A stretch of DNA of 45,534 nt, from IMG/VR virus record IMGVR_UViG_3300020058_000046. One strand, given 5' to 3'. The notes under the pieces are model-generated. The model was not told the origin of the DNA. It made no database searches and worked only from the letters and a program-made list of their open reading frames with translations. Both the position numbers and the translations under genes were made by a program. Shown here piece after piece: positions 5,039 through 41,508 of the stretch; positions within the stretch are counted from its first letter, which is position 1, and every line of letters starts with the position of its first letter. This stretch comes from a virus.

Positions 5039-5080
5039 ACCACACGGTTCGTCGATATTGGGTATTAACGTGTCGGTGCC
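5039..5080 (-). promoter_or_regulatory. Archaeal promoter for the tail operon
   Basis: Minus strand reads CCGACACG-TTAATAC, then about 26 nt, then ATG(5038). It matches the CGACAC(G)+T/A-rich box consensus seen at at least 10 other starts in this genome. Confidence 0.6.
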
Positions 5081-5151
5081 CGGTCGACCGTGTCTGCACA
5101 GTCGTCTTTGTCGGTGCGAACGACGGGTGTGTAAGTAACTGTCGCCGTAAT

Positions 5152-5400
5152 ACTATCAGGTACAGTACCGATACGCCCATATACACAGTTTCGATTCTAT
5201 GCCGTCTAAGCGGTCGCACAGTCGGTTTGAATTTTCGCCGACCCATACCACCTATTCATTTTTCAAACGGATTCGGCAAGTTCGGACTCTGTACTTGCCG
5301 ATATCCGGCGTTTCGGCAAAATACATGGGTACTTAAAGGCACCCGCCGATATTACCCTGTATCAGACTGCGTAAACAAAACGCGTCGGGTCCGGCGTCGG
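5152..5400. repeat. Long intergenic repeat, copy A (paralog of 26843..27089)
   Basis: About 250 bp aligns with copy B with scattered substitutions. Contains GCGTTTTGTTT, a TTTAAGTA TATA-like box and a hairpin CGGCAAGT-N11-ACTTGCCG. Confidence 0.85.
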
Positions 5401-5549
5401 TCGGTGCCTGTCGGTGCCTGCACAGTCGTCGTCAGAAACGGCACAGTCGGTCGTGACGCCGTCGCAGTCGAACGTGCCCGATTGGTCGGACCCTGTCGGC
5501 GACGACTGCACGCGCGTCGCACGTCGGCACGCACACCCTGCCGTGTCGA
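5401..5549. repeat. Phased-repeat boundary element, copy 1 (most diverged)
   Basis: Directly follows the stop of 5550..6482. Shares ctgcacagtcg..gtcagaaacggcacagtcggtcgtg..ccgtcgcagtcg.acgtgcc with the copies at 17809, 27090 and 36466. Confidence 0.8.
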
Positions 5550-15845: not shown

Positions 15846-16766
15846 TTAGTGTTCGTCACGCGTCTGTGGTTGCACGTCACCGTCACACCGACACCTGCCG
15901 AATATGTGATAATCGGCAGTCGGTCGTGTCACACCGAATTCGCGGGCGATACGTGCGACGACCGGGTCGTCGCGTCGACTGTGTGACTGCCGCAATTCGT
16001 CACATAACGCCGTCGTGGTACTTGCCCGTGGTATCGGGTCGACATCGACATCGTGGTCGCAGTCGTCGCGCAAGTGCTTGTACGCCGTCGATACTGCGAT
16101 ACGATACGCCGACGCGCATTCGTCGACGGTTACCGTTTCGTTCCGTCTGTACGCGTGACGAAGGTGCCCGCATTCGGCAGTCGACAGTACGGCGTCGACC
16201 GGGTCGTCGCGTCGGCAGTCGTGGTCACACCTGCCCCAAAGGTGTTTATGAACCGCATTCGCCGACCGATGAAAGTCTGCCATGATGTCGGCTTTCGTTG
16301 CCCCTGCCCGGAACGCGTCGCGGATATCGCAACATTCGTCGACGCCGACACGCGGCGATGTCGTCGGCGGGTCGTCGTGGTCGTGGTTGCACCGACCTTC
16401 GGCATGACGGAATACTGCCGACGGGTGTACCGTGTCGTATCTGTCCATGACCGTCGACGGTCGACGTGCCTGCCGCATTCGGCGTCGTATGTCTGCACAG
16501 TCGTCGGCGTCGACTGCCGACGGTGATTGGTCCGACCCTGACGCCGACGCGTGTGACGTGCCGTCTGACGCCGTCTGTGACCGTTCACAGTCGCCGGATA
16601 ACATCGACGGTTTCCGTGCCGACCGTGGTAACTTGCCGAATCGCACGATTCGTTCGGCTTCGGAACGGTCGAACGCCGTGTCGCCGGTCGACAGATATTC
16701 GATTCGGGCACGGTCGGCGTCGTCTAAGTCGACCGACTGTAAGTCAGGGTCGGTTACTGTTGACAT
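15846..16766 (-). CDS. DNA-binding protein with four tandem Cys/His-decorated HTH-like repeats, 306 aa
   Basis: ATG at 16766 (the ORF-track start at 16775 is GTG). There are 4 repeats of about 48 aa with the pattern [DE]C..[IL]R-x18-25-[VA]..H[LAI].G[RD]C.[HC]D. Confidence 0.7.
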   Translation of the reverse strand: MSTVTDPDLQSVDLDDADRARIEYLSTGDTAFDRSEAERIVRFGKLPRSARKPSMLSGDCERSQTASDGTSHASASGSDQSPSAVDADDCADIRRRMRQARRPSTVMDRYDTVHPSAVFRHAEGRCNHDHDDPPTTSPRVGVDECCDIRDAFRAGATKADIMADFHRSANAVHKHLWGRCDHDCRRDDPVDAVLSTAECGHLRHAYRRNETVTVDECASAYRIAVSTAYKHLRDDCDHDVDVDPIPRASTTTALCDELRQSHSRRDDPVVARIAREFGVTRPTADYHIFGRCRCDGDVQPQTRDEH

Positions 16767-17724: not shown

Positions 17725-17780
17725 CGGTGTGTCGCACCGGGTGCCCGTTCGGGCGTTCGCGTTAAAAGTCTGTCGTCGTC
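17725..17780 (-). promoter_or_regulatory. Promoter of the packaging/head operon
   Basis: Minus strand reads GACAGAC-TTTTAAC, then 27 nt, then GGTGCGACACACCG-ATG. Confidence 0.6.
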
Positions 17781-17808
17781 AGTCTAAAGATTGAATCTTC
17801 GCCCGGTC

Positions 17809-17956
17809 GACCCTGTCTGCACAGTCGGCGTCACAGTCGCCGTCAGAAACGGCACAGTCGGTCGTGTGACCGTCGCAGTCGTACGTGCCGTATGGGTCGA
17901 ATCAGGAAAAGAACCGTCGCGTGCCGTACGCCGTCGACCCTGACGACCCTGCCGCG
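17809..17956. repeat. Phased-repeat boundary element, copy 2
   Basis: Begins at the TGA of 17957..18526. Nearly identical to copies 3 and 4. Contains TTCTTTTCC (minus strand) and 4 copies of GACTG[TC]G. Confidence 0.9.
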
Positions 17957-18526
17957 TCAGTCGTCGTCGTTGTCGGCAGTACCCAACCCGTCGATGTCCG
18001 TACCGGCAAGTGCCGCGTCGACGACTTCGGTGTCGAACGCGTCGACTGCGTGTGCGACGATTGGGTCGGCGACTGTACTGTCAGGGTCGACCCTGTCGAA
18101 CAGTTGCGACAGGAATTCGACCCGACGGTCGAATTGCGGTCGTGTCTGACTGTCGTACAGGTGTTCGATTGGGATTCGTGCAAGCCGACCCGACGGGTAA
18201 TCGTACGTCTTGTCGGCAGGGTCGGCGGGTATGTCTTGCGGCTTCGTCGGCACGAACACGCATTCGAATATCGTGTCGTCGGGTCGGATTGGTAACCACG
18301 GGTGAACCTTGTACGTGGTTAGGTCGAAGTCTTCGTCGTCGAAGTATTCGACCGCCGTGTCTGCACGAACGCGACTGACGTACAACGGTCGACCTTGCAC
18401 AAGGTCGATTACGATGTCGCCCGGTTGTACCTGTCGCGGGAATTGCGACAGACTGTCAGTCAGTCGGTCGTGTGCCTTGCGTTCCGATTCGTCGAACGTG
18501 TTGTCGATTGCACCGTGTTCAGACAT
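17957..18526 (-). CDS. Acidic protein of unknown function, 189 aa
   Basis: ATG at 18526 (MSEHGAID...) overlaps the stop of 18519..19094 (ATGTCTGA). The longer ORF-track version (to 19072) runs through the upstream gene in a Ser/Thr/Arg-rich frame. Confidence 0.7.
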   Translation of the reverse strand: MSEHGAIDNTFDESERKAHDRLTDSLSQFPRQVQPGDIVIDLVQGRPLYVSRVRADTAVEYFDDEDFDLTTYKVHPWLPIRPDDTIFECVFVPTKPQDIPADPADKTYDYPSGRLARIPIEHLYDSQTRPQFDRRVEFLSQLFDRVDPDSTVADPIVAHAVDAFDTEVVDAALAGTDIDGLGTADNDDD

Positions 18527-19842: not shown

Positions 19843-19900
19843 TGCAGTCGTCACTAATAGACGGGTGTATAAATATGTGTCGTCTTGCACCGCCAGTATG
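19843..19900 (-). promoter_or_regulatory. Conserved promoter cassette, sub-type I
   Basis: Minus strand reads GGTGCAAGACGACAC-ATATTTATACAC-CCGTCTATTAGTGACGACTGCA-ATG. Confidence 0.75.
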
Positions 19901-22703: not shown

Positions 22704-23153
22704 TCACAACCCGGCAGACACCGCAACGTACACGACTTGCGTTGCGAACAGACTTGTTAGAAAATACCACGGTTTTTCTTTGATGTCGTGTGCCCCAATG
22801 CCGTGATTGCAGGGTGAATCAGGATTATACTGCCGTCGACGTGCGAAGACGAAGTCGCCGACCATGTACGCGACACCGACGACGGCACCCGGAAAGCCGA
22901 ACGCGACTGCGAACGCGACGAAGACGCCGACGCCGACACCTAACTGCAATGCGTGCAGTTTCACCCACGACAGATTACGCAACCACGGTAAATTAGGTCG
23001 AACGGGTCGGTGACGGGTTTCTGCAAGCCACCGGATACCCGCGACTTCGACGCCGTCGGCAGGGTCCGGGTGGTCGTACCCGTCGTCGTCACCGCCGGCA
23101 CAGTCGCCGTCAGTCGCGGCAGACACGTCGTCACCGCCGTCTTTCCGGTTCAA
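22704..23153 (-). CDS. Membrane protein, 149 aa
   Basis: TTG start in a TTGA overlap with the upstream stop. Acidic N-terminus followed by 2-3 hydrophobic helices (LQLGVGVGVFVAFAVAFGF..., WYFLTSLFATQVVYVAV). Confidence 0.55.
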   Translation of the reverse strand: MNRKDGGDDVSAATDGDCAGGDDDGYDHPDPADGVEVAGIRWLAETRHRPVRPNLPWLRNLSWVKLHALQLGVGVGVFVAFAVAFGFPGAVVGVAYMVGDFVFARRRQYNPDSPCNHGIGAHDIKEKPWYFLTSLFATQVVYVAVSAGL

Positions 23154-23542: not shown

Positions 23543-23580
23543 GGTCGACGAAAGGTGCCGTCGGCACTAAACCATTCGTA
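23543..23580 (-). promoter_or_regulatory. Promoter of the membrane-protein/terminase operon
   Basis: Minus strand has GGTTTAGTGCC, then about 26 nt, then ATG(23542). Confidence 0.5.
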
Positions 23581-23605
23581 CCGTGTCGGAAAGAAACCGT
23601 GTGAC

Positions 23606-23645
23606 GTGCCGTCTGTGCCCGTCTGTGCCCGTCTGTGCCCGTCAG
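23606..23645. repeat. 10-bp tandem repeat (GTGCCCGTCT) x ~3.5
   Basis: The sequence gtgccgtct gtgcccgtct gtgcccgtct gtgcccgtca lies immediately after the stop of 23642..23851. Confidence 0.9.
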
Positions 23646-23851
23646 TCGCGTTCGTCGCGTTCGTCGCGTCGAACTAAGCAACCGGAAAGACCGGAATTCG
23701 ACGCCGATTGCGGGTCACACACCCAATGCCCGGCACGACCGCATTCAGTACACCGATACTTACCTGTACCACCGCGAATCGTGATTCGTTCGTACACCGT
23801 TTCGACTTCGTGCCCGCATTCACAGACGAAGCCGACTTCGTCGTCGGTCAT
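23642..23851 (-). CDS. Zinc-ribbon protein, 69 aa
   Basis: Contains CECGH...x19...CTECG. The C-terminal RDERDERD is encoded by a 9-bp tandem repeat. Confidence 0.65.
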   Translation of the reverse strand: MTDDEVGFVCECGHEVETVYERITIRGGTGKYRCTECGRAGHWVCDPQSASNSGLSGCLVRRDERDERD

Positions 23852-23852
23852 G

Positions 23853-23987
23853 TTACCACCGACCCGACGCGACTTCGTTGCCCTTGTCGAATAGCACTTG
23901 CGCGACTTCGGCGTCGTCGGCGTCGGTGTCTTCGATTAGTTGTTCAAGTTCCGATTCGAAGTCGCCCGCCGGCGATTCCGTCGTCAT
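23853..23987 (-). CDS. Small acidic protein, 44 aa (MTTESPAGDFESELEQLIED...), below the ORF-track cutoff
   Basis: ATGA overlap with 23984..24346. Shares the MTTES start and about 37 nt of junction sequence with 28658..29020. TAA at 23853, 1 nt before the next ATG. Confidence 0.5.
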   Translation of the reverse strand: MTTESPAGDFESELEQLIEDTDADDAEVAQVLFDKGNEVASGRW

Positions 23988-24346
23988 TGCGAACCACCGT
24001 CGTCACGCGGGTCGGTCGGCAGTCGCACGTCGTCGGCGTCGATTCGCAGTCGCGTACCGCCGTTGTGTCTGTCTTCGACTGTCACCGGCGGGAAATACGC
24101 GTCGTACATACCGGCGACTGCCGCGTCGATGTCCGACGCCGACCACGATTCGGGCAATTCGACCACCGCGTCGCCGGCGATAGCAATGAATTCGTCGATG
24201 TCCTTGCCGTGTACGTTGCGGTCGAACCACCGTTGCGCGTGTGCAAGCCAATATCGGGCATGGTCACCCGCGTCGGTGTCTTCGCCGGCGGTTCCGAACC
24301 GTTCGTACCGACCTTGTCGTTCGTCGGTTGTGGTGTGTCGCACCAT
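23984..24346 (-). CDS. MVRH-cassette gene, 120 aa, ending in the DPRDDGGSQ linker
   Basis: ATG at 24346 behind the conserved promoter. The C-terminal ...DPRDDGGSQ* is identical to that of 29017..29232. Confidence 0.75.
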   Translation of the reverse strand: MVRHTTTDERQGRYERFGTAGEDTDAGDHARYWLAHAQRWFDRNVHGKDIDEFIAIAGDAVVELPESWSASDIDAAVAGMYDAYFPPVTVEDRHNGGTRLRIDADDVRLPTDPRDDGGSQ

Positions 24347-24400
24347 ACCCCTACTTGCATACCCGTGTATAAATATGTGTCGTCTTGCACCGGCAAAAGG
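24347..24400 (-). promoter_or_regulatory. Conserved promoter cassette, sub-type II
   Basis: Minus strand reads GGTGCAAGACGACAC-ATATTTATACAC-GGGTATGCAAGTAGGGGT-ATGGTGCGACACACC. The TATA is at 24368-24375. Confidence 0.8.
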
Positions 24401-25158: not shown

Positions 25159-25947
25159 TCAGTCGTCGATTCGACCGTCGTGGTCGACCGTCACGTCGAA
25201 GTCGGAATCGACCGTGCGTTCGACGCCGGCTTCGATTCGGTCTTGCACGGTGTCGACGCGGTCGTCGGTGACGCCGTCGACGGTCACCGTGAACGTGTGA
25301 CCGGCAGGGAATTCGACGCGTGCCGTCTTGCCGATTTCTTGATTCCGTCGACCCTGCGTTTCGACGGTGCGTTCGTGAACCGCCGTCACTTCGACGTGCC
25401 TGTCGCGTCGACTGTCGTACCCACGAATCCGGTCACCATTCCATTCGACCGATACGTCTTGCAGGGTCATGGTTTTCAGATTGCCCGAACGGTTCGAACG
25501 GTACTGCACCGTCACGTCGACGCCGTCTTGCACGGCACCGTCGACGGGTGCCCGCCGACCCATGACCACGCAGGTTAGGTCGACCGCGTCGGCGACTTGC
25601 CTGAATTCGTAATCGTCACCCTGCCGGTACAGATTGCCGGCGTCGGTGTACGCGTACTTCGTGCCGTCGACGTACCAACTGTAAACGCCGACGCCGTCGT
25701 CGGTGTCGACCTTGTCGGCGTCGCGGGTCGACTTCGTCGGCGTAACTGCCCGAACCGTCTTGCGCGTGTCGCGTCGGGTCGTGTACGTGAATTCGATTGC
25801 CTTGCGGTTGTGGTCACAGTCGACGACATCGTCAGACACGGTAAGACCCGTGAATCGGTCGTGAAATAGGTCGTCGGCTTCGATGTCGACCGTTCGTTCG
25901 TGGTATTCGTCGGCGATTCGGTCGTCGGTTGCGGTGTGTCGCACCAT
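25159..25947 (-). CDS. MVRH-cassette gene of unknown function, 262 aa
   Basis: ATG at 25947 (MVRHTATDDRIADEY...). The ORF-track N-terminal extension translates the promoter and the upstream repeat. Confidence 0.75.
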   Translation of the reverse strand: MVRHTATDDRIADEYHERTVDIEADDLFHDRFTGLTVSDDVVDCDHNRKAIEFTYTTRRDTRKTVRAVTPTKSTRDADKVDTDDGVGVYSWYVDGTKYAYTDAGNLYRQGDDYEFRQVADAVDLTCVVMGRRAPVDGAVQDGVDVTVQYRSNRSGNLKTMTLQDVSVEWNGDRIRGYDSRRDRHVEVTAVHERTVETQGRRNQEIGKTARVEFPAGHTFTVTVDGVTDDRVDTVQDRIEAGVERTVDSDFDVTVDHDGRIDD

Positions 25948-26002
25948 ACCCCTACTTGCATACCCGTGTATAAATACGTGTCGTCTTGCACCGGCGGGCA
26001 AG
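25948..26002 (-). promoter_or_regulatory. Conserved promoter cassette, sub-type II
   Basis: Minus strand reads GGTGCAAGACGACAC-GTATTTATACAC-GGGTATGCAAGTAGGGGT-ATG. Confidence 0.8.
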
Positions 26003-26350: not shown

Positions 26351-26799
26351 TGCGAACCACCGTCGGCGTCGTCGTCGTCGTCGTCGTCGCGTCGTTCGGG
26401 CACTTCGACGTACAGTCGAACGCAACCGGCACCGTCACGGAATCGAACCGTTCGGTCGGTCGATTCGTCGGCGTACCCGGCAAGCCTGACAAGTGACATC
26501 GGCGTCGCGTGTGGGTCGTCTTGCCCGAACGAATCGTATTCGACTTTCACTTCGTCGGCACGGTCGAAGTCTATCATAGACAACACGTCGAAGCCGACCG
26601 CGTCGGCACACAGTTTTGCGGCAAGACCGACCGGCGTTAGAACCTTCGACGATTCCGGGTCGTGGTCGTCGGCGTCGTATTCGGCTTCGACCGCGTCGAC
26701 GACCGCGTCGAACGCGTCAGACGACGGGTCGTCGGCGTACGCAGTCGCAGTCTGTTCCGGCGTCGGTTCGGCGTCGTCGGCGTCGGTGTGTCGCACCAT
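26347..26799 (-). CDS. MVRH-cassette gene, 150 aa, ending in the ...DGGSQ linker
   Basis: ATG at 26799 (MVRHTDADDAEPTPEQ...). The C-terminus is DDDDDDDADGGSQ*. Confidence 0.75.
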   Translation of the reverse strand: MVRHTDADDAEPTPEQTATAYADDPSSDAFDAVVDAVEAEYDADDHDPESSKVLTPVGLAAKLCADAVGFDVLSMIDFDRADEVKVEYDSFGQDDPHATPMSLVRLAGYADESTDRTVRFRDGAGCVRLYVEVPERRDDDDDDDADGGSQ

Positions 26800-26842
26800 A
26801 CCCGTACTTGCATACCCGTGTATAAGTATCTGTCGGTGGTTT
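26800..26842 (-). promoter_or_regulatory. Conserved promoter cassette, sub-type II, with the upstream half replaced by the long repeat
   Basis: Minus strand reads CCGACAGAT-ACTTATACAC-GGGTATGCAAGTACGGGT-ATG. Confidence 0.7.
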
Positions 26843-27089
26843 ACTATCAGGTACAGTACCGATACAGTCATATACGCAGTTTCGATTCTAAGCCGTCTTA
26901 GCGGTCGCACAGTCGGCTTCAATTTTCGCCGACCCATACCACCTATTCTTTTTTCAAACGGATTCGGCAAGTTCGGACCCTGTACTTACTGATATCGGGC
27001 GTTTCGGCAAAATACACGGGTATTTAAAGGCACCCGCCGATATCACCCTGTATCATAATACCGAAACAAAACGCGTCGGTTCCGGTGTC
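26843..27089. repeat. Long intergenic repeat, copy B (paralog of 5152..5400)
   Basis: See copy A. Contains GCGTTTTGTTT, CCTTTAAATACCC, and a conserved stem GTCGG-N12-CCGAC whose loop differs between the copies. Confidence 0.85.
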
Positions 27090-27237
27090 GACCCTGTCTG
27101 CACAGTCGGCGTCACAGTCGCCGTCAGAAACGGCACAGTCGGTCGTGTGACCGTCGCAGTCGTACGTGCCCGATTGGTCGCAGTCACAGACGAACCGTCG
27201 CGTGCCGTACACCGTCGACCCTGACGACCCTGCCGCG
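27090..27237. repeat. Phased-repeat boundary element, copy 3
   Basis: Begins at the TGA of 27238..28041. Minus strand has GACTGCGAC-N15-GACTGCGAC-N12-GACTGTGCC-N12-GACTGTGAC-N3-GACTGTGCA. Confidence 0.9.
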
Positions 27238-28041
27238 TCAGTCGCCGTCGTCTTCGTCGCCGTCTTCGTCGGTCGGTGGTTCGGTCACCTGTACGTGCGT
27301 GATATCGACTTCGGTGACACCGTCGTCGTCGACCGTCACGTCGTGGTCACCGTCGACATTCACGTCGACACCGTCTGATATCTTCTTGTACGTGTCTATC
27401 AGGTTCGCAAGGTGGCTTTCCTTGCGTTCGATTGCCTTGTCACCGAACGATACGAACCGTTCACCCGTCGGTTCGAAGTCGCCCGAACGTACGTCGCACG
27501 GCGTCGGGTTACCGTCAGACATATCGAAGCCGGTGCAGACTTCGGGCAACGGTGACGATTCCGACGCCGTGTACGTGTTGCCACACTTCGGGCAACTGTA
27601 CTTGTCGACCCGTTCGGCTTCGGGTATCTTGTCGACTGCCCGAACCAACCGGGTGAATTCCCACCCGATTGATTGCTTTAGCATATCTGCCATGTCGTCG
27701 ACCGACAGTAAGTCGCCGTCGTCTGTCTGCACGACCGCGTCGAAGACTTCGGCGTCGTCGTCGTTCATTCGTTCGGAATACAACAGGTGTCGGGCGTTTT
27801 GGTTTTGCCACCCTTCTAAGCCACCGACGCCGTGCCCGTTGTGTTTCCTGCAATGCCCGGTCGTACGGTCGGTGCCCCAACCTGCGGCTTGCAGACAAAA
27901 CGCGTAATCCCACCGTTTGTTTCCGTTCACGTCTGTCGCGTCTGTCTTTTCACGACCGCATATCGGATATCCGTTTTCCGGGTGTATCGGTACGCCGTCG
28001 TCGTTCGTCGGTGCGTCAGGGTGTACGTTCGACCATGCCAT
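27238..28041 (-). CDS. HGGxSTG-like Zn-binding protein; possible small terminase subunit, 267 aa
   Basis: ATG at 28041. The N-terminus CGREK..x..CLQAAGWGTDRTTGHCRKHNGHGVGG..WQNQNARHLLYS resembles the C..C..GRC..HGG...G..GN.NA.KHG.YS block seen in some phage TerS-annotated proteins. Middle CPKCG. Acidic tail. Confidence 0.35.
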   Translation of the reverse strand: MAWSNVHPDAPTNDDGVPIHPENGYPICGREKTDATDVNGNKRWDYAFCLQAAGWGTDRTTGHCRKHNGHGVGGLEGWQNQNARHLLYSERMNDDDAEVFDAVVQTDDGDLLSVDDMADMLKQSIGWEFTRLVRAVDKIPEAERVDKYSCPKCGNTYTASESSPLPEVCTGFDMSDGNPTPCDVRSGDFEPTGERFVSFGDKAIERKESHLANLIDTYKKISDGVDVNVDGDHDVTVDDDGVTEVDITHVQVTEPPTDEDGDEDDGD

Positions 28042-29020: not shown

Positions 29021-29232
29021 TGCGAACCACCGTCGTCACGCGGGTCGTCGAAGCCGTCGACGTACGTGACTGCAAGGTCGATAATCTGGTTCGGGTCGTC
29101 GATTGAACCGACTTCGTCGACGATGAATTCGGGCACGTCGTCGTCGCCGGTTAGTGCCTGCATTGCGTCGAACGCGTGTGCTTTCGTCTGTTCGTCGGTT
29201 CCGTCGTCGTCGGCGTCGGTGTGTCGCACCAT
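29017..29232 (-). CDS. MVRH-cassette gene, 71 aa, ending in DPRDDGGSQ
   Basis: ATG at 29232 behind the conserved promoter. Confidence 0.75.
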   Translation of the reverse strand: MVRHTDADDDGTDEQTKAHAFDAMQALTGDDDVPEFIVDEVGSIDDPNQIIDLAVTYVDGFDDPRDDGGSQ

Positions 29233-29285
29233 ACCCGTACTTGCATACCCGTGTATAAAAATGTGTCGTCTTGTACCGGCAGGTG
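29233..29285 (-). promoter_or_regulatory. Conserved promoter cassette, sub-type II
   Basis: Minus strand reads GGTACAAGACGACAC-ATTTTTATACAC-GGGTATGCAAGTACGGGT-ATG. Confidence 0.8.
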
Positions 29286-30033: not shown

Positions 30034-33000
30034 TCAGTCGTCAGGGTCGACCGCGTCTTCAACCGTCACGGCTTCGATTCGCGTAATCGTGCGTGGTTCG
30101 TCGAAGTCGGCACCGTGCAGTTGCGGTCGGTATGCGTTCACCTGTCTGTCGTCGGTGTCGCCGGTGGTTCCGACGCGTGTTTCTGTCCATTCGACCGATA
30201 CCATGCAGTCGTCACGAAGCCATCGGAACGACGCCGTGTGTGCCGTCTTCGTTCCGTACTTGTGGTCGGTCGTCGACCGTGCGTGTCGTCTGAATTCGGC
30301 GGTGACCGTGCCTGCGACGGTTCGCAGGTGGTACGCGTCGCCGGATTCGACTGTGACCGTCGTGTCTTCGTTCACGGGTATGTCGACCGATACGTACGGC
30401 GTCGCGGCAGGGTCGACCACGGTGTCGAAGTCGCCGTCGTCGCCGTCGTCGCCGGCACCCTGCCCGCCGTCGGTTCGAACCGCGTGCAGGGTTGCGTCGA
30501 ACGATATGACTGCAAGCCACCCGTCGGTGTCGACGACGGACAGTCGACCGCCGGCATTCCATACTAACTGCTTGCCGTCGGCGTCGGCAAGTTTCACGAT
30601 GTTAGATAGTTCCGTGCCGTCGACCGTCTTGATGTCCGTGTCGGTCACCGTTCCGGCGATTCGACCTTTGCCGTCGTCGCCGGCAATCGGTTCGGCTTGC
30701 ACGACCACGTTGTCACCGCGTTCAAGGTCGTGTGCGTCGACTTCGGTGTCGTCGTCGGTATCCTGCCCGCCGTCGGTTCGAATCCTGCCGTCGCCGGCGT
30801 CACAGTCGTCGTCAGACGCGTCAGACGTGCCGTCAGGGTCGTCGTCGGTGTCGTCGGTGGTTTCGTCACCGTCGTCGACGCGGTCGACGTGCCGTGCAGA
30901 CACGACGATAGACGTGCCGTCGTACGCGACGTGCCCGTCACCGTCGCGGGTCGTGGTCGCAGTCAGTTGTGACCCGTCGACTTCGTCGACCGTTGCCTGC
31001 CCGCCGTCGACGAAGGTGCCCGAATGTTCGTCGGGCACGAACACGGTGTCGCCGGCGGTGATATCGTGGTCGTAATTGTACTTCGGGTCGTCGAAGTCGA
31101 CGCCGGCGTCGGTTAGTTCGTCGACGACCGCGTCTGACGACCGGATTTCAGGCACCGCGAAGTCGCGGTCGTCACCGGCTTCGAACGCGACGAATTCGAT
31201 ATCGCCGATGTACGTGTGATTCCCTGCCGACGACACCGAATGTATCTGTCCGGTCGTAAACTTGTCATTGCCGAACCGGAACGACCCGTCGTGGTCGTCG
31301 GTTTCGAAGACGATTCGGTGCAATTCGCCGTGTGCGTGATTGTACGTCACGTTCGTCACCGTGCCCGACTTCGTCAGGGTCGACGACGAACGGTTCGAAT
31401 CGTACGCGACGAACACCCTGTCGCCGATTGCGATATCGCCGGCGTCGAAGGGCACTTCTTGATACGTACCCAATGACTGCAAGCCGGAACCTGACGTGCC
31501 GGCGGTGACGTGACTGTCGTACGATTCGGCGGTTTCGTACGCGACTGCACCGGGTCGGTCGTCGTTGTAGACTTCGCCCGACGATTCCTGCACGTACCAC
31601 CTGTCGTCGTCGGTTGCGGTGAACCGAACGACACCGTCGGACACCTTCGTCACCGTGCCCGCGACGACGGTGTCGTCGTGATTGCAGTCTTTGCCCGTGA
31701 CGACGATACTGTCGCCGGCTTCGAACCTGCCGTCGAATGCGTCACAGTCGTCGTCAGACGCGTCAGACGCGTCGTCAGGGTCGTCGTCGGCGTCGTGCCC
31801 GCCGTCGGTCACCGGGTCGGCACGTTCGACAGTCAGGTGCCGGTCGTCTGATTCCTGCACGGCGTCGACACCGTCGAAGTGTCGTAACATTGCGTCGCCC
31901 GCGTCGACCGCCGTGTCGTCGCCGGTGAATGACATCGACAATTCGTGTAACTGAACGCCGACGACGCGTTCGTCGGCAGGGTCGACCGCGAAGTGTCCGT
32001 ACCGGGCACCACCTTTCACCGTTCGCAAGTCGACCGCGTCAGTCAGGGTCGACAATGCCGACTGCACTTCGTCGACGACGCCGTACTGTTCGGCGACGAT
32101 TTTGTCAGGTTCGAACCACCCGGCAAGACCCGTTCCGAAGTCGAACGTGGTTCGGTCACCGGAACGGTCGGCGACGAATCTGATTTTGTGCCGGTCGGCG
32201 TCATTCATCGGTTTGTCGACTGCGACTTCGAACGGGTCGGCGTCTTCGTCGCGGGCAGACAAGACACGACGGCACGTTTCCGTCGCCGTGTCTGCCACCG
32301 GAACGAAGACACCGGATTCGACGGATTCGACGAAGTCGTCGATAGTGTCTGCCGAACCGTTGTCGTACCGAACGACCGTGTCGAACGACGCGTCGTCGAC
32401 GGTTTCGACGGTGTAAACCTTGTCGTTGTGAACGCCGACGAACGTGTCGCCCGGCGACGGCATATCGGCGTTGTCGGCGTCGTCGGTGCCGTCGTCGACG
32501 ATGTCGATGTCGTCGACACGACCCAACTGCGTATTGTGTTTGCGTGACGGACCCGTCGACTTGTGCAGAAACACGGGCACGGTGTCGCCGTCGGCACGAA
32601 CGTACCGCGTCGAACCGTCGTAATCGGCGTCGGGTGCCGTCGCGTTCGTTTGCAGTCGGATTCGGGCAGGGGCACCGTCGTCGTCGGTCGTCGTCACGGC
32701 TTCGGTGACCCACACGTCGACCGTCGTGGTTTCGTCGTATTCGTCTTTGTAGTGACGCGACTTGTGTGCGTACGTCACTTCGATTCGGTCACCGGCTTCA
32801 AGACCCTGCACGATGTCGAACGCGTCGGCAAACGGCAGGTGGTCGGTCGTCGATTCGTCGGCGTCGTCGGCGGGCACAAGTTCGATTACGTCGGCGTCTT
32901 TCAGTCTGTACGACAGCGTGCCGTGTGGTTCCGGGTCGACCCATGTGGTGCGACCCGACGCCGAATCGTCTGTCGTCACGCGGTACACGTCTGTCGTGCC

Positions 33001-33497: not shown

Positions 33498-33922
33498 TGT
33501 GTCACCCGTTGCATTACTGCAAGGATTGCGAACGCGTACAGGAAAGCAAACGCACCGCCGACGATTAAGCCGACGTGAACACCGCCGAACGACGCCGACA
33601 CCGCCGTCGTGCCGTACGCGACGGACAAGGCACCCACCGCAAGGGTGCCGTATAATCCTGCCGTGACGGTCGTTCGTGCCGGTGGCACGGCGTCGACAAT
33701 GCCGGTCGTTGTCGTCGATAGTGTCTTCGACATTGCCGTCAGTACGTCGTCGCCGTCGTCGTGCGTGTCAGTTTCGTCGACCGCGTCGCCGGCGTCGTCG
33801 TGCGTCGGTGCGTCAGGGTCGGCTTCGCCGGCGTTCGGTTGCACTTTCCGATTCACCGTTCGGTCGTCGTGGTCGTCGCCGTCACCGTCACCGTCGACAG
33901 TACCGCCGTCGGCGTCGGTCAT
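33494..33922 (-). CDS. Membrane protein with an acidic N-terminal region and two C-terminal TM helices, 142 aa
   Basis: ATG at 33922 overlaps the PCNA stop (ATGA). The ORF-track start at 33988 lies inside the PCNA gene. Confidence 0.65.
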   Translation of the reverse strand: MTDADGGTVDGDGDGDDHDDRTVNRKVQPNAGEADPDAPTHDDAGDAVDETDTHDDGDDVLTAMSKTLSTTTTGIVDAVPPARTTVTAGLYGTLAVGALSVAYGTTAVSASFGGVHVGLIVGGAFAFLYAFAILAVMQRVTQ

Positions 33923-34716: not shown

Positions 34717-34774
34717 GGTTGTTCGGTGGGTCCGAATTGCGGGTCGGATACCCGCCGACCGCGTGGTCGGAAAG

Positions 34775-34857
34775 TGGCACCTGCCGGATTCGAACCGGCG
34801 AAGTCCTGCGACGCACGGTCTTAAGCCGTGTGCAGTCGACCACTTTGCTAAGGTGCC
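34775..34857 (-). tRNA. tRNA-Leu (anticodon UAA), class II, 83 nt, no encoded CCA
   Basis: Acceptor GGCACCT/AGGTGCC. D stem GCA/TGC with GG in the loop. Anticodon stem CACGG/CCGTG with loop CTTAAGA. 14-nt variable arm. T arm GCCGG-TTCGAAT-CCGGC. Discriminator A. Confidence 0.85.
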
Positions 34858-34883
34858 CCAAACGAACCGGCGTGCGCCGGTGG

Positions 34884-35171
34884 TTAATGCGTGTCGGCGT
34901 CGTCTGTCGGCATATTCGGCACAGTCGCGTCGACCGACAGGGTTTCGTTCAGGATTCGTTTCACGCAGTCGTCGCACACCGTTGCTTTCGTGTTCGACGG
35001 TGCCGGCGAATTTTGGTTTTGTACGTATTCGCCGACAAAGTGCCCGATGTCGACTTCGTGCCCGTTGTCGTCGGCAGTCAGGAATCGGTCACACCCTGCA
35101 CCGTCGCACACGTCACCGCGTTCGATATCCGATTCGTCGATTACCGTACCGTCGGGTAATTTCAATGCCAT
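34884..35171 (-). CDS. Small Cys-containing protein, 95 aa
   Basis: ATG at 35171, 4 nt after the upstream stop. Contains CDGAGC...CDDC. Confidence 0.65.
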   Translation of the reverse strand: MALKLPDGTVIDESDIERGDVCDGAGCDRFLTADDNGHEVDIGHFVGEYVQNQNSPAPSNTKATVCDDCVKRILNETLSVDATVPNMPTDDADTH

Positions 35172-36339: not shown

Positions 36340-36392
36340 GGGTCGGTCACCACGGTCGACGATTGTTTCGGCGGGTATAAAACCGTGTCGGT
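36340..36392 (-). promoter_or_regulatory. Promoter of the PCNA operon
   Basis: Minus strand has CCGACACGG-TTTTATAC, then about 36 nt, then ATG, with GGTGACCGACCC before the ATG. Confidence 0.6.
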
Positions 36393-36465: not shown

Positions 36466-36607
36466 GTCTGCACAGTCGGCGTCACAGTCGTCGTCAGAAA
36501 CGGCACAGTCGGTCGTGACGCCGTCGCAGTCGTACGTGCCGTATGGGTCGAATCAGGAAAAGAAACGTCGCGTACCGTACGCCGTCAGTCGTGACGACCC
36601 TGCCGCG
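36466..36607. repeat. Phased-repeat boundary element, copy 4
   Basis: Begins at the TGA of 36608..38305. Near-identical to copy 2. Confidence 0.9.
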
Positions 36608-38305
36608 TCAGTCGTCGGTGTACTTGTCGTGCAGGGTCGTGAATGACCCGTTTCGGGAATCACGGCACCCACACGGGCACCGCAAGGTTAGTTCGCGGTC
36701 GGTCGTCGTGTTGTATCGACTGATTTTGTAGGTGTGAACGCGAAGGGTCGGTCGAAGTCGGTCACCACACCACGGGCACACCGCAAGTTCGTGCAAGACT
36801 TCGGTGCCCTTGTCGGTGATATCCCACCGGGCATTAGGGTCGTCGAAGTCGGCGTCGTCATTGCCGTCGACGCGTTCAATCAAGCCGACTTCGCGTGCCT
36901 TGCGAATGACCGTTCGAAAGTGTGCGTCGCCGTGTGCGAAGCCGTCGGGTCGACGGAAACCCGTGCCCGGTGACCCATGACCCTGCACCTTGCGAACACC
37001 TTGCTTACCCGTCGGGCACGGTGCGATATCGTCAGGGTCGACATCGTCGTCGTACGTGTTCACGGTGAACATACCGCCGTCGCCCGACGCGTCTTCGCGT
37101 GCCGACGCAATGAATTCCTGCCACCACGCGACATCGGTAAGCAACGACCGAACCTTCGTCGGCGTCACCGACGCGTATTCGTCGAACACGTCGGCGACAT
37201 CGTCGGGCACGTCGGCGTCGTCGACGGACCACACGCGGTCGTCTTTGCAGTCGATACACACCGGGTCGTCGTGTGCCGGGTGGTCGTGTTCGGCACCGGC
37301 GTCGTGCGTGTCACCGCAACGGGCACAGTCGAACGTGTCGATGTACCTGTCGGCGGTCTTTTTGCCGTCGTCGTTGTACTGTGCCTTGTTGTAAGCCGCG
37401 TCGCGGATTCGTTCGACGTTTCGGTTCACGGACAGTCGGCGAAACGTCTGTGCGACTTCGGTTCGGTTGTTGTCCGACGCGTCGACAAGGTCGGAATACG
37501 AAGCCGCGTCGAATTCGTCGTCGAAGTCGTGTGGTATCGTCGCACGATACCACAAGGGTCGTTCGTAATCAGGGTCGTCGTATGACGGCAAGCCGTCGTC
37601 GACATCGTCGCCCGCCGTGCCTGCACGCAATGCGATAGTTGCGTCGAAGGGGCAGTCGCCGTCGTCGCCGTCGCAGGTGTATCGCAGTCGAATGATTCCG
37701 TCGTCGTCGACACGGGTGCGTTCGCGGTTCCGGTGACCGTCGTGAACCGGGCACGTCGGCGGTGCGTGTGACAACGATTCACCGTCGGCGTCGTCGGAAT
37801 ACTGTTCGACGACCTTGTGAACGACGGTGCCGTCTTCGACGACCGTTCGAATCGACCCGTCGTGCCGAATCTTGATGTCGTACTGTTCCGGTTCGGCGTC
37901 GCGCAAGAAGTGTTCCGTGTCGGCGTCGGAGTGTGCGTCGACTTTGGCTTCGACCGGGTCGGTGTCACCGCCGTCGGTCACCGCGTCGGCGACTGCCGTT
38001 TCGAACGCGTCGACGGTGTCGCCGAATCCGCGTTCGGCGTCGGTCGGTTCGCGGTCGTCGGCGTTCAGGTGGTCGTCGGCGTCGGCGGTGTCGTCGCGGT
38101 CGACGCCGTACGGATTGCGCGACTTTAGTTCGGCGATTGCGACTTCGGCGTTCGCGGTAAGGACAGGTTCGGCGTATTCGCCGTCGGGCAGGTTCGCGGC
38201 AGTCTGTGCGACGCGGTCGATGTACTGAATCAGTTGGTCGGTCGACATCGTCGTCGGGTCGATGTCGGCGGGCGATTCGTCGTCGGCGTCGGTGTGTCGC
38301 ACCAT
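36608..38305 (-). CDS. MVRH-cassette gene: large Zn-finger / winged-helix-like protein, 565 aa, candidate replication or regulatory factor
   Basis: ATG at 38305 (an in-frame ATG also sits 6 nt upstream). Cys clusters CARCG..CIDC and CPWCG..CPCGC. FRTVIRKAREVGLIERV resembles a wHTH recognition helix. Confidence 0.75.
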   Translation of the reverse strand: MVRHTDADDESPADIDPTTMSTDQLIQYIDRVAQTAANLPDGEYAEPVLTANAEVAIAELKSRNPYGVDRDDTADADDHLNADDREPTDAERGFGDTVDAFETAVADAVTDGGDTDPVEAKVDAHSDADTEHFLRDAEPEQYDIKIRHDGSIRTVVEDGTVVHKVVEQYSDDADGESLSHAPPTCPVHDGHRNRERTRVDDDGIIRLRYTCDGDDGDCPFDATIALRAGTAGDDVDDGLPSYDDPDYERPLWYRATIPHDFDDEFDAASYSDLVDASDNNRTEVAQTFRRLSVNRNVERIRDAAYNKAQYNDDGKKTADRYIDTFDCARCGDTHDAGAEHDHPAHDDPVCIDCKDDRVWSVDDADVPDDVADVFDEYASVTPTKVRSLLTDVAWWQEFIASAREDASGDGGMFTVNTYDDDVDPDDIAPCPTGKQGVRKVQGHGSPGTGFRRPDGFAHGDAHFRTVIRKAREVGLIERVDGNDDADFDDPNARWDITDKGTEVLHELAVCPWCGDRLRPTLRVHTYKISRYNTTTDRELTLRCPCGCRDSRNGSFTTLHDKYTDD

Positions 38306-40625: not shown

Positions 40626-41373
40626 ACGCACCGCCGTCGCGTGCCTTGCGATACGTCGTCTGTTTCACCCTGTCGCCGATGTCGGCGACTTCGGCGTCGA
40701 CCGCGTCTTCGGTTCGACCGATTACGATTTTCCATGCCGACCCGTCACCCGTATCTGCCGGCTTCGCAACGACTGCGTTGTACTTGTCGACGACGCGTTC
40801 AATCAGGGATTCGCGGGCACGGTCACCGAACGACCACCTGTCGTCTATTATGTTCGTCAGTACGGCACGCGGTACTGCGACCGCGTCGTCGGTGGTTCGC
40901 AAGAGGTATTCGGCGATGTATTCGGCTTTGTCGCGTTTCGGTGCCTTTGCGTGTGGTACGTCGTCAGGGTCGAAGTCGGAACCGCCGTCGTCGGTACTGT
41001 CGTCGGCGTCGTCTGTGCCGGCGTCACAGTCGCCGACAGACGCGTCAGACGTGCCGTCAGGGTCGACCCGTGCAGTCTGCCCGGTGTGTGTGTGCGACGG
41101 TCGTGAAACGGTGCGTGTGGTGTCTGTACCGCCGTCACAATCGACGACGACCGCGTCTTCAAGCCGCGACAATTGTGCCTGAATCGTTGCGACATCGTTT
41201 TCTAACCGGGCGATTTCATCGGTCGGTCGGTCGGCGTCGATGTACTGCCGTATTGCGTTTTCAAGTTCGTCACGCAAGACACCGCGTCGTTGCCCGTGCC
41301 TGTCTTCGACGTACCGAACGAACCTGTCGTACAAGTCGGCGTCTATCGGCGTCGGTTGTTTGGTGTCACCCAT
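40612..41373 (-). CDS. Ribbon-helix-helix (CopG/Arc-like) regulator with a long acidic C-terminal extension, 253 aa
   Basis: ATG at 41373 (MGDTKQPTPIDADLYDRFVRYVEDRHGQRRGVLRDELENAIRQYI, a beta-alpha-alpha pattern). A TATTTACA box lies 27 nt upstream. Contains one in-frame copy of the DPDGTSDAS..DCDAG segment. Confidence 0.6.
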   Translation of the reverse strand: MGDTKQPTPIDADLYDRFVRYVEDRHGQRRGVLRDELENAIRQYIDADRPTDEIARLENDVATIQAQLSRLEDAVVVDCDGGTDTTRTVSRPSHTHTGQTARVDPDGTSDASVGDCDAGTDDADDSTDDGGSDFDPDDVPHAKAPKRDKAEYIAEYLLRTTDDAVAVPRAVLTNIIDDRWSFGDRARESLIERVVDKYNAVVAKPADTGDGSAWKIVIGRTEDAVDAEVADIGDRVKQTTYRKARDGGAFSNQ

Positions 41374-41505: not shown

Positions 41506-41508
41506 AAC

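What the first reader, a model, noticed from the sequence alone, without database searches (positions are those of the whole stretch)
27090..27237. A ~145-bp phased-repeat element marks the 3' end of four transcription units
Seen: copies lie at 5401-5549, 17809-17956, 27090-27237 and 36466-36607. Three begin exactly at a ...GAC TGA stop, and the copy after the tail-tube gene is more diverged. On the minus strand the element reads TGACGCGGCAGGGTCGTCAGGGTCGAC..., then a T-tract (TTCTTTTCC, in copies 2 and 4 only), then 4-5 copies of GACTG(T/C)G(A/C)C with start-to-start spacings of 21, 21 and 12 nt, ending ...GTGCAGAC. Copies 2, 3 and 4 are nearly identical even though their flanking genes are unrelated. 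Copies 1 and 3 continue into a further ~250-bp shared repeat. The short motif CCGTCTG(C/T) / CCTGTCTGCAC also recurs with a 10-bp period at 23606-23645 and 41592-41613.
Known: archaeal terminators are short oligo-T tracts and need nothing this elaborate. Repeats phased by about two helical turns are typical of protein-binding arrays such as iterons, pac boxes or partition sites.
Inference: this is a boundary element bound by a viral DNA-binding protein. The four-HTH-repeat protein at 15846..16766 is an obvious candidate, pairing 4 HTH modules with 4-5 boxes. It could act in termination or antitermination, packaging recognition or replication.
Basis: partly seen in the sequence, partly recalled or inferred. 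Interest (0 to 1): 0.75.

Follow-up and report, generated by a model that had tools for sequence, protein, structure and literature searches.

The report
Coding-derived repeat behind four virus genes
Four copies of a ~150-bp repeat sit right behind the stop codons of four unrelated genes in an uncultivated salt-loving archaeal virus, but its "phased boxes" are leftover Asp-Cys-Asp codons of a gene-derived module that spread by recombination and now lies next to simple oligo-T terminators, not a demonstrated protein-binding array.

Summary
Four same-orientation copies lie at 5401-5549, 17809-17956, 27090-27237 and 36466-36607. Each abuts the stop codon of an unrelated minus-strand gene and lies 47-84 nt upstream of the next TATA box.

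The element is a chimera. Its ~55-nt 5' spacer looks non-coding. Its 74-86-nt core has gene-like codon usage in the Asp-Cys-Asp frame. The core shares a 22-mer, and ~78% identity over 60 nt, with an acidic linker module translated in frame in at least three genes of the same virus. Box spacings (24, 21, 21, 12) are all multiples of 3, so codon phase explains them better than helical phase.

The core is not a conserved gene: two copies carry an in-frame TGA and no start codon, and no homologue turned up in two very large protein searches. There is no RNA structure signal and no Rfam match. The element is absent from 153 kb of related viruses, which still keep the 4xHTH protein. Every copy carries or abuts a sense-strand T-tract. 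Variants among copies are mosaic, which indicates recombination.

Best reading: an untranslated, coding-derived boundary cassette in the 3'-UTR and terminator zone. Interest is modest.

The parts
27087..27240 (-). Copy c3 of the element, including the TGA stop (27238-27240) of the upstream 267-aa gene. This is the copy named in the finding.
27182..27237 (-). c3 5' spacer. It shows no coding signature in any frame. It is shared with c2 and c4 but not with c1.
27096..27181 (-). c3 core. Boxes GACTGYGMC lie at 27177-27185, 27153-27161, 27132-27140 and 27111-27119, with GACTGTGCAGAC at 27096-27107. Codon usage is gene-like in the Asp-Cys-Asp frame (+0.68 bits per codon).
17806..17959 (-). Copy c2, including the TGA stop of gene 17957-18526. 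Core at 17815-17900.
17905..17913 (-). T-rich patch TTCTTTTCC inside c2. It is terminator-like (T4C) and is followed by the in-frame TGA that breaks the Asp-Cys-Asp frame.
36466..36610 (-). Copy c4, including the TGA stop of gene 36608-38311. Core at 36466-36551. T-rich patch TTTCTTTTCC at 36556-36565.
5416..5489 (-). Copy c1 core, with a 12-nt deletion of one box unit.
5490..5549 (-). Sequence between the tail-tube TAA stop and the c1 core. It is not homologous to the 5' spacer of c2-c4. It aligns with the short tail-tube 3' region of relatives, including CGACCAATCGG.
27064..27071 (-). TTTTGTTT T-tract directly behind c3, at the start of the 273-nt repeat. Likely terminator.
5373..5380 (-). 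TTTTGTTT T-tract directly behind c1.
26818..27090 (-). 273-nt repeat D11 behind c3. It comprises a T-tract, a TATA box TTTAAATA (27021-27028), and a ~150-nt region (26845-26994) that folds better than shuffles.
5127..5399 (-). Second copy of D11, behind c1 (89% identical). TATA box TTTAAGTA at about 5330-5337.
5078..5106 (-). Second copy of the element's 3' end (GACGACTGTGCAGACACGGTCGACCGGGC), lying after D11 in the c1 region. It matches the c2 3' junction, so D11 looks inserted into an older element copy.
27024..27212 (-). 62-aa GTG-start ORF across c3, called as a gene by JGI (P0001). Judged a chance ORF around the coding-like core. It runs through the T-tract and ends inside the TATA box.
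30784..30850 (-). In-frame coding paralogue of the core (..DPDGTSDASDDDCDAG..) in gene 30034-32811. It shares the 22-mer TCTGACGACGACTGTGACGCCG with c4.
31726..31817 (-). Second in-frame paralogue in the same gene.
41011..41084 (-). In-frame paralogue in gene 40612-41457. It lies in an acidic linker that is about 25 aa shorter in the L031 homologue.
23074..23151 (-). Weaker in-frame paralogue (..ATDGDCAGGDD..) at the N-terminus of gene 22704-23153.
17761..17768 (-). TATA-like CTTTTAAC of the promoter downstream of c2. The promoter is conserved in relative L035, which lacks the element.
36375..36383 (-). TATA-like GTTTTATAC of the promoter downstream of c4.

Best explanation
The element is an untranslated, lineage-specific intergenic cassette with two parts.

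1. A ~55-nt non-coding spacer that starts at the stop codon. It is present in c2, c3 and c4.
2. A 74-86-nt core that is a fossil or paralogue of a coding module. The same Asp/Cys-rich acidic-linker DNA is translated in frame inside at least three other genes of this virus.

The periodic GACTGYGMC 'boxes' are Asp-Cys-Asp/Ala codons, which is why they are spaced in multiples of three.

Inferred: the cassette was copied to four gene ends by homologous or microhomology-driven recombination and gene conversion between GAC-rich tracts. Acidic C-terminal tails ending GAC(GAC)TGA provide the upstream junction. In its present places it forms the 3'-UTR and spacer of four transcription units. Termination itself is probably done by ordinary archaeal oligo-T signals, which are either built into the cassette (c2, c4) or delivered with the adjoining 273-nt terminator-promoter module (c1, c3).

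Shown: repeat structure, positions, codon signature, homology to coding modules, absence of a conserved ORF or RNA structure, absence in relatives, mosaic variation.

Inferred: mode of spread, lack of translation, termination at the T-tracts.
For: Copies and sub-structure: four copies with sharp sub-structure.

Codon signature:
- The core scores +0.68 to +0.84 bits per codon in the Asp-Cys-Asp frame, and -0.4 and about -1.1 in the other two frames.
- Real genes in frame score 0.53 +/- 0.30. No off-frame gene window exceeds 0.35.
- The 5' spacer, D11 and most other intergenic DNA score about 0 or below in all frames.

Homology to coding DNA:
- The 22-mer TCTGACGRCGACTGTGACGCCG occurs in c2, c3 and c4. 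It also occurs in frame in genes at 30795, 31737 and 41019, against 0 expected.
- Local alignments of core against coding modules run about 60 nt at about 78% identity, with a net 3-nt gap.
- The coding modules themselves are 91-96% identical between unrelated genes.

Phase: box spacings of 24, 21, 21 and 12 are all multiples of 3.

Not a gene:
- c2 and c4 have an in-frame TGA and no start codon.
- The c1 and c3 tails are read in different frames.
- Most substitutions between copies fall at codon positions 1 and 2 (read by eye from the alignments).
- The 62-aa ORF has no homologue among 5.8 billion proteins or 1.84 billion representatives, and no Pfam match.

Not a structured RNA: fold z-scores range from -0.55 to +1.16, and there is no Rfam hit.

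Lineage-specific:
- No hit in 153 kb of relatives, the phage or plasmid databases, or the IMG/VR, metagenome and GTDB scans.
- Relatives have a 123-153-nt gap after the tail-tube gene and unrelated 63-64-aa ORFs after the homologue of the c2-upstream gene.

Mosaic variation: CAATCG/CCATAC groups c1+c3 against c2+c4, while GGCGTC/GGTCAC and GAC/GGC group c1+c4 against c2+c3. A duplicated GACGACTGTGCAG flanks D11 in c1.

T-tracts: the four element regions hold most of the few T-rich sense-strand 8-mers found in intergenic DNA. The implied 3'-UTRs of about 55 or about 175 nt fall within the range reported for Haloferax volcanii, whose intergenic terminators are T-stretches (PMC7237163).
Against: - No transcript, ribosome or binding data exist. 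All available genomes of this virus are 100% identical, so selection on the core cannot be measured.
- A 26-nt block including box B is invariant in all four copies. All four copies keep the same orientation and lie a similar 47-84 nt from the next TATA box. Both facts would also fit a cis-acting site.
- Two copies (c1, c3) retain open reading frames of 70 and 62 codons.
- The direction of descent is not resolved: coding module to intergenic copy, or the reverse.
- The recombination mechanism is inferred from junction sequences only.
Confidence: 0.5

Rival explanations
1. The core would be a cis-acting array of direct-repeat binding sites for a viral or host DNA-binding protein. It would work as a roadblock terminator or insulator at the end of a transcription unit, or as an upstream activating or operator region for the next promoter.
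For: - Four or five similar 9-nt boxes sit in direct orientation, with two 21-nt spacings.
- A 26-nt block is invariant in all four copies.
- Orientation is constant, and the core ends 47-84 nt upstream of a TATA box in every copy.
- The position of the T-tract relative to the core is not fixed. It lies before the core in c2 and c4 and after it in c1 and c3. A DNA-level role tolerates that better than an RNA-level role does.
Against: - The 12- and 24-nt spacings are off helical phase, whereas all spacings are multiples of 3.
- The core has a coding-type codon signature and is homologous to translated modules.
- The boxes are not enriched outside the elements once GAC periodicity is allowed for.
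- The candidate 4xHTH protein is conserved in relatives that lack the element and the boxes.
- The promoter downstream of c2 is conserved in relative L035 without the element.
- Conservation among copies is patchy and mosaic. It is not concentrated on the boxes.
Confidence: 0.2
2. The element would be a small gene family encoding an acidic Cys-rich mini-protein. It would be intact in c1 (70 aa, ATG) and c3 (62 aa, GTG), and recently pseudogenised in c2 and c4.
For: - ORFs exist in c1 and c3, and JGI called the c3 ORF as a gene.
- The core has gene-like codon usage.
- In relatives, unrelated small ORFs of 63-64 aa occupy the slot behind the homologue of the c2-upstream gene.
Against: - c2 and c4 carry an in-frame TGA and have no start codon.
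- Only about 25 residues are shared between c1 and c3. Their N-termini differ, and their C-termini come from the same DNA read in different frames.
- The c3 ORF runs through a T-tract and stops inside a TATA box.
- The 5' spacer that holds the c3 start codon has no coding signature.
- Substitutions are mostly non-synonymous.
- No homologue and no Pfam family were found.
Confidence: 0.1
3. The element would act at the RNA level, in the 3'-UTR, as a stability, processing or regulatory element or as a target site for a small RNA.
For: - The position directly after stop codons and the constant orientation relative to transcription fit a 3'-UTR element.
- Haloarchaeal 3'-UTRs are long enough to carry such elements (PMC7237163).
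- A small hairpin, GCGTACGGTACGC, precedes the T-tract in c4.
Against: - No fold is better than shuffled sequence for the whole element or for its 5' half.
- There is no Rfam match, even at permissive thresholds.
- If the T-tracts terminate transcription, the core is transcribed in c1 and c3 but lies behind the terminator in c2 and c4. The most conserved part would then not be consistently in the RNA.
Confidence: 0.1

Closest known systems
Intergenic repeats (IR class I and II) of halovirus HF2 and relatives (Russ, Pfeiffer and Dyall-Smith 2021, PMC8707807)
   Same: Both are dispersed, same-orientation repeats in the intergenic regions of a tailed haloarchaeal virus, and both delimit transcription units.

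This window also has a true analogue of the HF2 IRs. It is the 78-nt promoter and leaderless-start cassette, present in at least seven copies. That cassette is also found in relatives.
   Different: - HF2 IRs are 29-58 bp, AT-rich and carry experimentally shown promoters upstream of genes.
- The element here is about 150 bp and GC-rich, has no TATA or BRE, lies behind stop codons, and has a coding-derived core.
PeSL composite terminator/promoter cassettes of T4-like phages (Arbiol et al. 2010, PMC2839356; Comeau et al. 2014, PMC4122927)
   Same: Both are repeated regulatory cassettes at gene boundaries that serve as substrates for homologous recombination and flank lineage-specific genes.

The element plus D11 (c1, c3) is a composite of 3' spacer, T-tract terminator and promoter. 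The copies are mosaic.
   Different: - PeSLs are short bacterial early promoters plus a stem-loop.
- Here there is no stem-loop, the signals are archaeal (TATA box, oligo-T), and the conserved core is neither promoter nor terminator.
- Modular exchange between genomes has not been observed here, because no close relative carrying the element is available.
Rickettsia palindromic elements (RPE), short repeats found both in intergenic DNA and inserted in frame in protein genes (from my own knowledge: Ogata et al. 2000)
   Same: One DNA repeat family occurs both translated in frame inside unrelated genes and untranslated between genes. In gene 40612-41457 it sits in a linker that is shorter in a homologue.
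   Different: - RPEs are palindromic and number tens to hundreds per bacterial genome.
- This family shows no terminal or internal inverted repeats.
- It has about 8-9 copies in one virus.
- It may spread simply by gene conversion between low-complexity acidic tracts.
Archaeal oligo-T intrinsic terminators (Haloferax volcanii Term-seq, Berkemer et al. 2020, PMC7237163)
   Same: Each copy has a sense-strand T-tract (T4CC, or TTTTGTTT followed by C or A) 47-175 nt after the stop codon. This is the same kind of signal and the same 3'-UTR range.
   Different: The T-tracts are only a few nucleotides of the cassette. The 86-nt core has no known role in archaeal termination.
Stoperators of cluster A mycobacteriophages (from my own knowledge: Brown et al. 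1997)
   Same: Many same-orientation repeated sites lie at gene ends and in short intergenic gaps, where a bound repressor blocks elongating RNA polymerase.
   Different: Stoperators are single 13-bp sites with a known cognate repressor. Here no binding protein is identified, and the boxes are explained by codon phase.

Membership tests
Iteron, pac-box or partition-site type protein-binding array | Three or more direct repeats of one motif spaced in register with the DNA helix (about 10.5 or 21 bp) | tested here: inconclusive
   Two spacings are 21 nt. The others are 12 and 24 nt. All are multiples of 3, and codon phase explains all of them.
Iteron, pac-box or partition-site type protein-binding array | Co-occurrence with a cognate DNA-binding protein | tested here: not met
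   For the proposed 4xHTH protein, homologues (40-61% identity) occur in relatives L031, L033 and L035. No element was found in the 153 kb of relatives held, and the boxes number 0-1 per locus. Other candidate proteins were not tested.
Iteron, pac-box or partition-site type protein-binding array | A single locus at an origin, a packaging site or a partition operon | tested here: not met
   The four sites are dispersed, 9.3-12.4 kb apart, behind unrelated genes.
Protein-coding gene | An open reading frame with a start codon in every copy | tested here: not met
   c2 and c4 have an in-frame TGA and no ATG, GTG or TTG before the core. c1 and c3 have ORFs with different N- and C-termini.
Protein-coding gene | Homologues, or a family match, elsewhere | tested here: not met
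   Only a self-hit was found among 5.8 billion proteins and among 1.84 billion representatives by full HMMER. No Pfam match at E<=1.
Protein-coding gene | Codon usage and three-base periodicity of the genome's genes | tested here: met
   Met for the core only: +0.68 to +0.84 bits per codon in one frame. Not met for the 5' spacer. This shows a coding origin, not present translation.
Structured RNA family | A stable or conserved secondary structure, or a match to a curated family | tested here: not met
   Fold z-scores range from -0.55 to +1.16. No Rfam match at gathering score or at E<=1.
Archaeal oligo-T terminator | A run of T on the sense strand shortly downstream of a stop codon | tested here: met
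   TTCTTTTCC (c2) and TTTCTTTTCC (c4) lie inside the element. TTTTGTTT lies directly after c1 and c3. Such tracts are rare in this genome's intergenic DNA.
Archaeal oligo-T terminator | Transcripts end there | not testable with these tools
   No transcriptome is available for this uncultivated virus.
HF2-type promoter-bearing intergenic repeat | An AT-rich TATA/BRE motif inside the repeat, located upstream of a gene start | tested here: not met
   The element has no TATA-like motif. The separate 78-nt cassette and D11 do have one.
PeSL-like composite terminator/promoter recombination cassette | Terminator and promoter joined in one repeated unit | tested here: inconclusive
   True of the element plus D11 in c1 and c3 by sequence motifs only. 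c2 and c4 are followed by unique promoters.
PeSL-like composite terminator/promoter recombination cassette | Acts as a crossover point between otherwise unrelated sequences | tested here: inconclusive
   The flanking genes are unrelated. The copies are mosaic. There is a duplicated junction around D11. No pair of genomes differing by such an exchange is available.
MITE (miniature inverted-repeat transposable element) | Terminal inverted repeats and target-site duplications | tested here: not met
   No terminal inverted repeats were found. A 10-nt direct repeat, CAGGGTCGAC, occurs near both ends in c2 and c3 only.
RPE-like repeat that also occurs in frame in genes | The same repeat is found both within ORFs in frame and in intergenic DNA | tested here: met
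   The shared 22-mer and the 60-nt alignments link the four intergenic cores to in-frame modules in three genes.
RPE-like repeat that also occurs in frame in genes | Palindromic sequence able to form a hairpin | tested here: not met

The most novel reading that the evidence does not exclude
The Asp-Cys-Asp module would be an active, self-propagating DNA element of an archaeal virus. It would insert either in frame into acidic linkers of proteins or directly behind stop codons, as an RPE-like selfish repeat without palindromes. Its four post-stop copies would have been exapted as a protein-bound insulator or roadblock that separates transcription units.
Probability: 0.12. Interest if true: 0.6.

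Novelty: new variant of a known kind. Interest (0 to 1): 0.3.

Why it matters
- The result is a caution: in halophile genomes with strong GAC periodicity, 'phased boxes' can be fossil codons. Multiples of 3 and a codon-usage test should be checked before calling iterons.
- It describes a halovirus genome built from repeated boundary modules. There are promoter cassettes at 5' ends, as in HF2, and a previously undescribed 3'-end cassette.
- It shows one short DNA module living both inside proteins and behind stop codons. This is a small, concrete case of recombination between low-complexity acidic tracts reshaping an archaeal virus genome.
- If the cassette proved to bind a protein or to control termination, it would be a new type of archaeal viral regulatory element. 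On present evidence that is the less likely outcome.

Tried and rejected
- DNA pattern scans for the invariant core or for a three-box array in IMG/VR, JGI metagenome contigs and GTDB genomes returned only chance seeds or unrelated 21-nt tandem coding repeats.
- BLAST searches of the phage and plasmid collections gave no hits.
- The search for related loci with two upstream proteins found no relatives in IMG/VR.
- Other contigs of the same virus are 100% identical, so there is no variation to analyse. The single apparent difference is a run of N.
- tRNA and Rfam searches found nothing at the element.
- RNA folds of the whole element and of its 5' half were not better than shuffles.
- The genome-wide enrichment of GACTGYGMC was rejected as evidence for dispersed binding sites after a GAC-NNN-GMC control.
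- +1 frameshifting at GAC-UGA-C, stop-codon readthrough, and an antizyme-like UCC-UGA-U site in c2 and c4 were considered. All were rejected because no frame stays open in all copies and the 5' spacer lacks a coding signature.
- A resemblance of GTTTCTGACGG to the start of haloarchaeal type I-B CRISPR repeats was recalled from memory. It is limited to about 10 of 11 nt and lacks the repeat's 3' handle. It was not tested further and is treated as chance.
- A hairpin at CGACCAATCGG, shared with the tail-tube 3' regions of relatives, was looked at. The helices differ between genomes, so there is no covariation.
- A search for analogous phased k-mer arrays in relatives found none.

Full report
CONTEXT

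The window is a complete, circularly closed contig. Bases 1-99 are identical to 45436-45534. It comes from an uncultivated haloarchaeal siphovirus. Its tail-tube protein (5550-6482, minus strand) is 39-44% identical to those of HHTV-2, HCTV-2, HCTV-5 and HVTV-1. Nothing in the phage collection matches the DNA. Identical copies of the virus occur in two other JGI samples. Nearly all genes are on the minus strand.

THE OBSERVATION

A profile of the core finds exactly four strong matches, with E from 3e-29 to 9e-23. The next best hit has E 6e-5.

Each copy begins at the stop codon of an unrelated gene. These are the tail-tube gene (TAA) and genes 17957-18526, 27238-28041 and 36608-38311 (all GAC TGA). 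GACTGA is the commonest gene ending in this genome, at 9 of 52 genes.

The following details are all confirmed:
- the boxes and their 21/21/12 spacing;
- the T-rich patch present only in c2 and c4;
- the 273-nt repeat behind c1 and c3.

c3 has one more box 24 nt upstream.

ANATOMY

The element is a chimera.
- c2, c3 and c4 share a ~55-nt 5' part that starts at the stop codon.
- c1 does not share it. Its first ~60 nt instead align with the short tail-tube 3' region of related viruses.
- All four copies share a 74-86-nt core at about 93-96% identity.
- c1 and c3 also share the following 273-nt module, D11. It opens with TTTTGTTT and carries a TATA box (TTTAAATA or TTTAAGTA). It is followed by a ~150-nt region that folds better than shuffles, with z of -2.3 and -2.4.
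- In the c1 region a second copy of the element's 3' end lies after D11, so D11 looks inserted into an older copy.

Variants among the copies are mosaic. One site groups c1+c3 against c2+c4. Two others group c1+c4 against c2+c3. That pattern requires recombination or gene conversion between copies.

WHAT THE BOXES ARE

All box spacings (24, 21, 21, 12) are multiples of three, and 12 and 24 are not whole helical turns. In the frame that reads the boxes as Asp-Cys-Asp/Ala, the core scores +0.68 to +0.84 bits per codon on a codon-usage log-odds built from this genome's long genes. The other two frames score about -0.4 and -1.1. This is the profile of real genes, which score 0.53 +/- 0.30 in frame, and no off-frame gene window exceeds 0.35. 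The 5' part, D11 and most other intergenic regions score about 0 or below in every frame.

The core is also homologous to translated DNA of the same genome:
- The 22-mer TCTGACGRCGACTGTGACGCCG is found in c2, c3 and c4. It is also found in frame in gene 30034-32811 (twice) and gene 40612-41457, where none is expected by chance.
- Local alignments extend to about 60 nt at about 78% identity, with a net gap of three bases.
- In the proteins the module reads ..DPDGTSDASDDDCDAG...
- In gene 40612-41457 it lies in an acidic linker that is about 25 residues shorter in a relative's homologue.
- The coding copies are 91-96% identical to one another in unrelated genes, so the module moves at the DNA level.

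The genome-wide excess of GACTGYGMC (48 against 2.1) mostly reflects GAC-NNN-GAC codon periodicity. Outside the elements, TGY is only 36 of 472 such sites.

IS IT TRANSLATED?

Probably not.
- c2 and c4 carry an in-frame TGA just before the core and have no start codon.
- c1 (ATG, 70 codons) and c3 (GTG, 62 codons) have ORFs, but only about 25 residues are shared between them.
- Their C-terminal tails come from the same DNA read in different frames.
- The c3 ORF runs across the T-tract and stops inside the TATA box.
- Differences between copies are mostly at codon positions 1 and 2.
- The c3 ORF, called as a gene by JGI, has no homologue among 5.8 billion proteins or 1.84 billion representatives searched exhaustively. 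It has no Pfam match.

IS IT AN RNA ELEMENT?

There is no evidence for one. Folds of the whole element and of its 5' half are no better than shuffles. Rfam gives nothing, even at E<=1.

COMPARATIVE EVIDENCE

Relatives were reached through the tail-tube protein (61-67% identity) and through the gene upstream of c2 (47-57% identity). They share the structural genes at about 65-72% DNA identity, the 78-nt promoter cassette, and the 4xHTH protein at 40-61% identity.

They show no trace of the element in 153 kb. After the tail-tube gene they have a 123-153-nt gap. After the homologue of the c2-upstream gene they have unrelated 63-64-aa ORFs, followed by a promoter that is conserved with the window. 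The element is therefore a recent acquisition of this lineage. The proposed pairing of four HTH modules with four or five boxes is not supported.

POSITION AND LIKELY ROLE

T-rich 8-mers on the sense strand are rare in this genome, with 19 in all and 8 of them intergenic. The four element regions hold most of the intergenic ones. These are TTTTGTTT directly behind c1 and c3 and TTTCTTTTCC inside c4. c2 carries TTCTTTTCC, which the scan's criterion just misses.

Haloferax volcanii terminates intergenic transcripts at T-stretches, with a median 3'-UTR of 97 nt (PMC7237163). The 3'-UTRs implied here are about 55 nt (c2, c4) or about 175 nt (c1, c3). Each core ends 47-84 nt upstream of the next TATA box. 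The element occupies 4 of about 16 intergenic gaps of at least 90 nt on the minus-strand gene train.

It therefore does mark boundaries between transcription units. The terminating signal, however, is the ordinary one. It lies before the core in two copies and after it in the other two.

CONCLUSION

The best-supported reading (about 0.5) is an untranslated, coding-derived cassette. It spread by recombination between GAC-rich tracts and now forms the 3'-UTR and spacer zone of four transcription units next to oligo-T terminators.

The rivals are:
- a protein-binding array acting as roadblock, insulator or upstream promoter element (about 0.2);
- a small Cys-rich protein family with two intact members (about 0.1);
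- an RNA-level 3'-UTR element (about 0.1).

The closest known systems are the promoter-bearing intergenic repeats of HF2 (PMC8707807), the PeSL terminator/promoter cassettes of T4-like phages (PMC2839356, PMC4122927), and, for the in-frame/intergenic duality, Rickettsia palindromic elements (from my own knowledge). It is a member of none of these by their defining features. I class it as a new variant of a known kind, namely dispersed boundary repeats in virus genomes. Interest is modest.

Noticed in passing
whole window; relatives L031-L040: The trinucleotide GAG/CTC is almost absent. It occurs 22 times in 45.5 kb against about 904 expected from dinucleotide content. Relatives show the same avoidance: L032 has 3 against 248, L033 20 against 435, L035 16 against 529, and L039 20 against 291. 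Relatives, but not the window, also deplete CTG/CAG (L033 has 15 against 176). This looks like avoidance of a very short restriction or defence target, or a consequence of DNA modification.
   Followed up: partly
window 26845-26994 and 5154-5303 (minus strand), within the 273-nt repeat 26818-27090 / 5127-5399: Behind a TATA box (TTTAAATA or TTTAAGTA) lies a ~150-nt stretch, present twice, closed by a long stem (UAUCAG..GUACAG..CCGA / UCGG..CUGUAC..CUGAUA). It folds better than shuffles, with z of -2.3 and -2.4. It is a candidate structured small RNA or leader. It has no Rfam match.
   Followed up: partly
window 9198-9284, 19796-19896, 24316-24395, 25906-25998, 26750-26836, 29186-29284, 38271-38353: There are at least seven copies of a ~78-nt cassette holding a TATA box (TTTATACA) about 27 nt before an ATG, plus the first codons MVRHT. 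This is a repeated promoter plus leaderless start that gives several genes the same N-terminus. Its core is also present in relatives (L033, L031). It is the analogue of the HF2 intergenic repeats.
   Followed up: partly
window 23606-23665 (minus strand), in the 441-nt gap 23543-23983: Tandem short repeats GACGAACGC (about 3 copies) and GGGCACAGAC (3 copies, 10-nt period) are followed by GGTTTCTTTCC. This is an iteron-like array and a better candidate than the finding for an origin or operator.
   Followed up: no
window about 41465-41560: A long near-perfect palindrome (TACTACTTACTACTTTTACAGTACAAACTAAGTAGTAAGTAGT) lies next to an inverted repeat (GGGTCGGTGA / CCGACCC). Both are in the divergent intergenic region between 40612-41457 (minus strand) and 41673-42146 (plus strand).
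   Followed up: no
window 1-99 and 45436-45534: The ends are identical over 99 bp. The contig is a closed circle or a terminally redundant assembly, so this is a complete genome of about 45,435 bp.
   Followed up: yes
window 15846-16775 (minus strand): The 309-aa protein does have four ~45-aa HTH-like repeats. Each is bracketed by Cys and His residues (..C.DIR......H..GRC.HD..), suggesting metal-stabilised HTH units. It lies directly upstream of the portal gene and is conserved in relatives.
   Followed up: partly
window 30777-30854, 31720-31796, 41017-41065, 35431-35566: An acidic linker module (..DPDGTSDASDDDCDAG..) is repeated at 91-96% DNA identity inside unrelated genes. This points to DNA-level copying between coding regions.
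   Followed up: partly
window 34775-34857 (minus strand): A tRNA-Leu gene with anticodon TAA (57 bits against Rfam tRNA) lies inside the span of a long mechanical ORF (33919-34977). The gene map there needs revision.
   Followed up: no
window 2670-3029: Three tandem 120-nt repeats (70-80% identity) lie inside the 666-aa ORF 2025-4025. By its position after the tail-tube and chaperone-sized genes, this is probably the tape-measure gene.
   Followed up: no
L035 10687-10878; L039 1323-1517: In relatives, the slot occupied by copy c2 holds small ORFs (63-64 aa) that are unrelated to each other and overlap the upstream stop as ATGA. This is a variable small-gene slot.
   Followed up: partly
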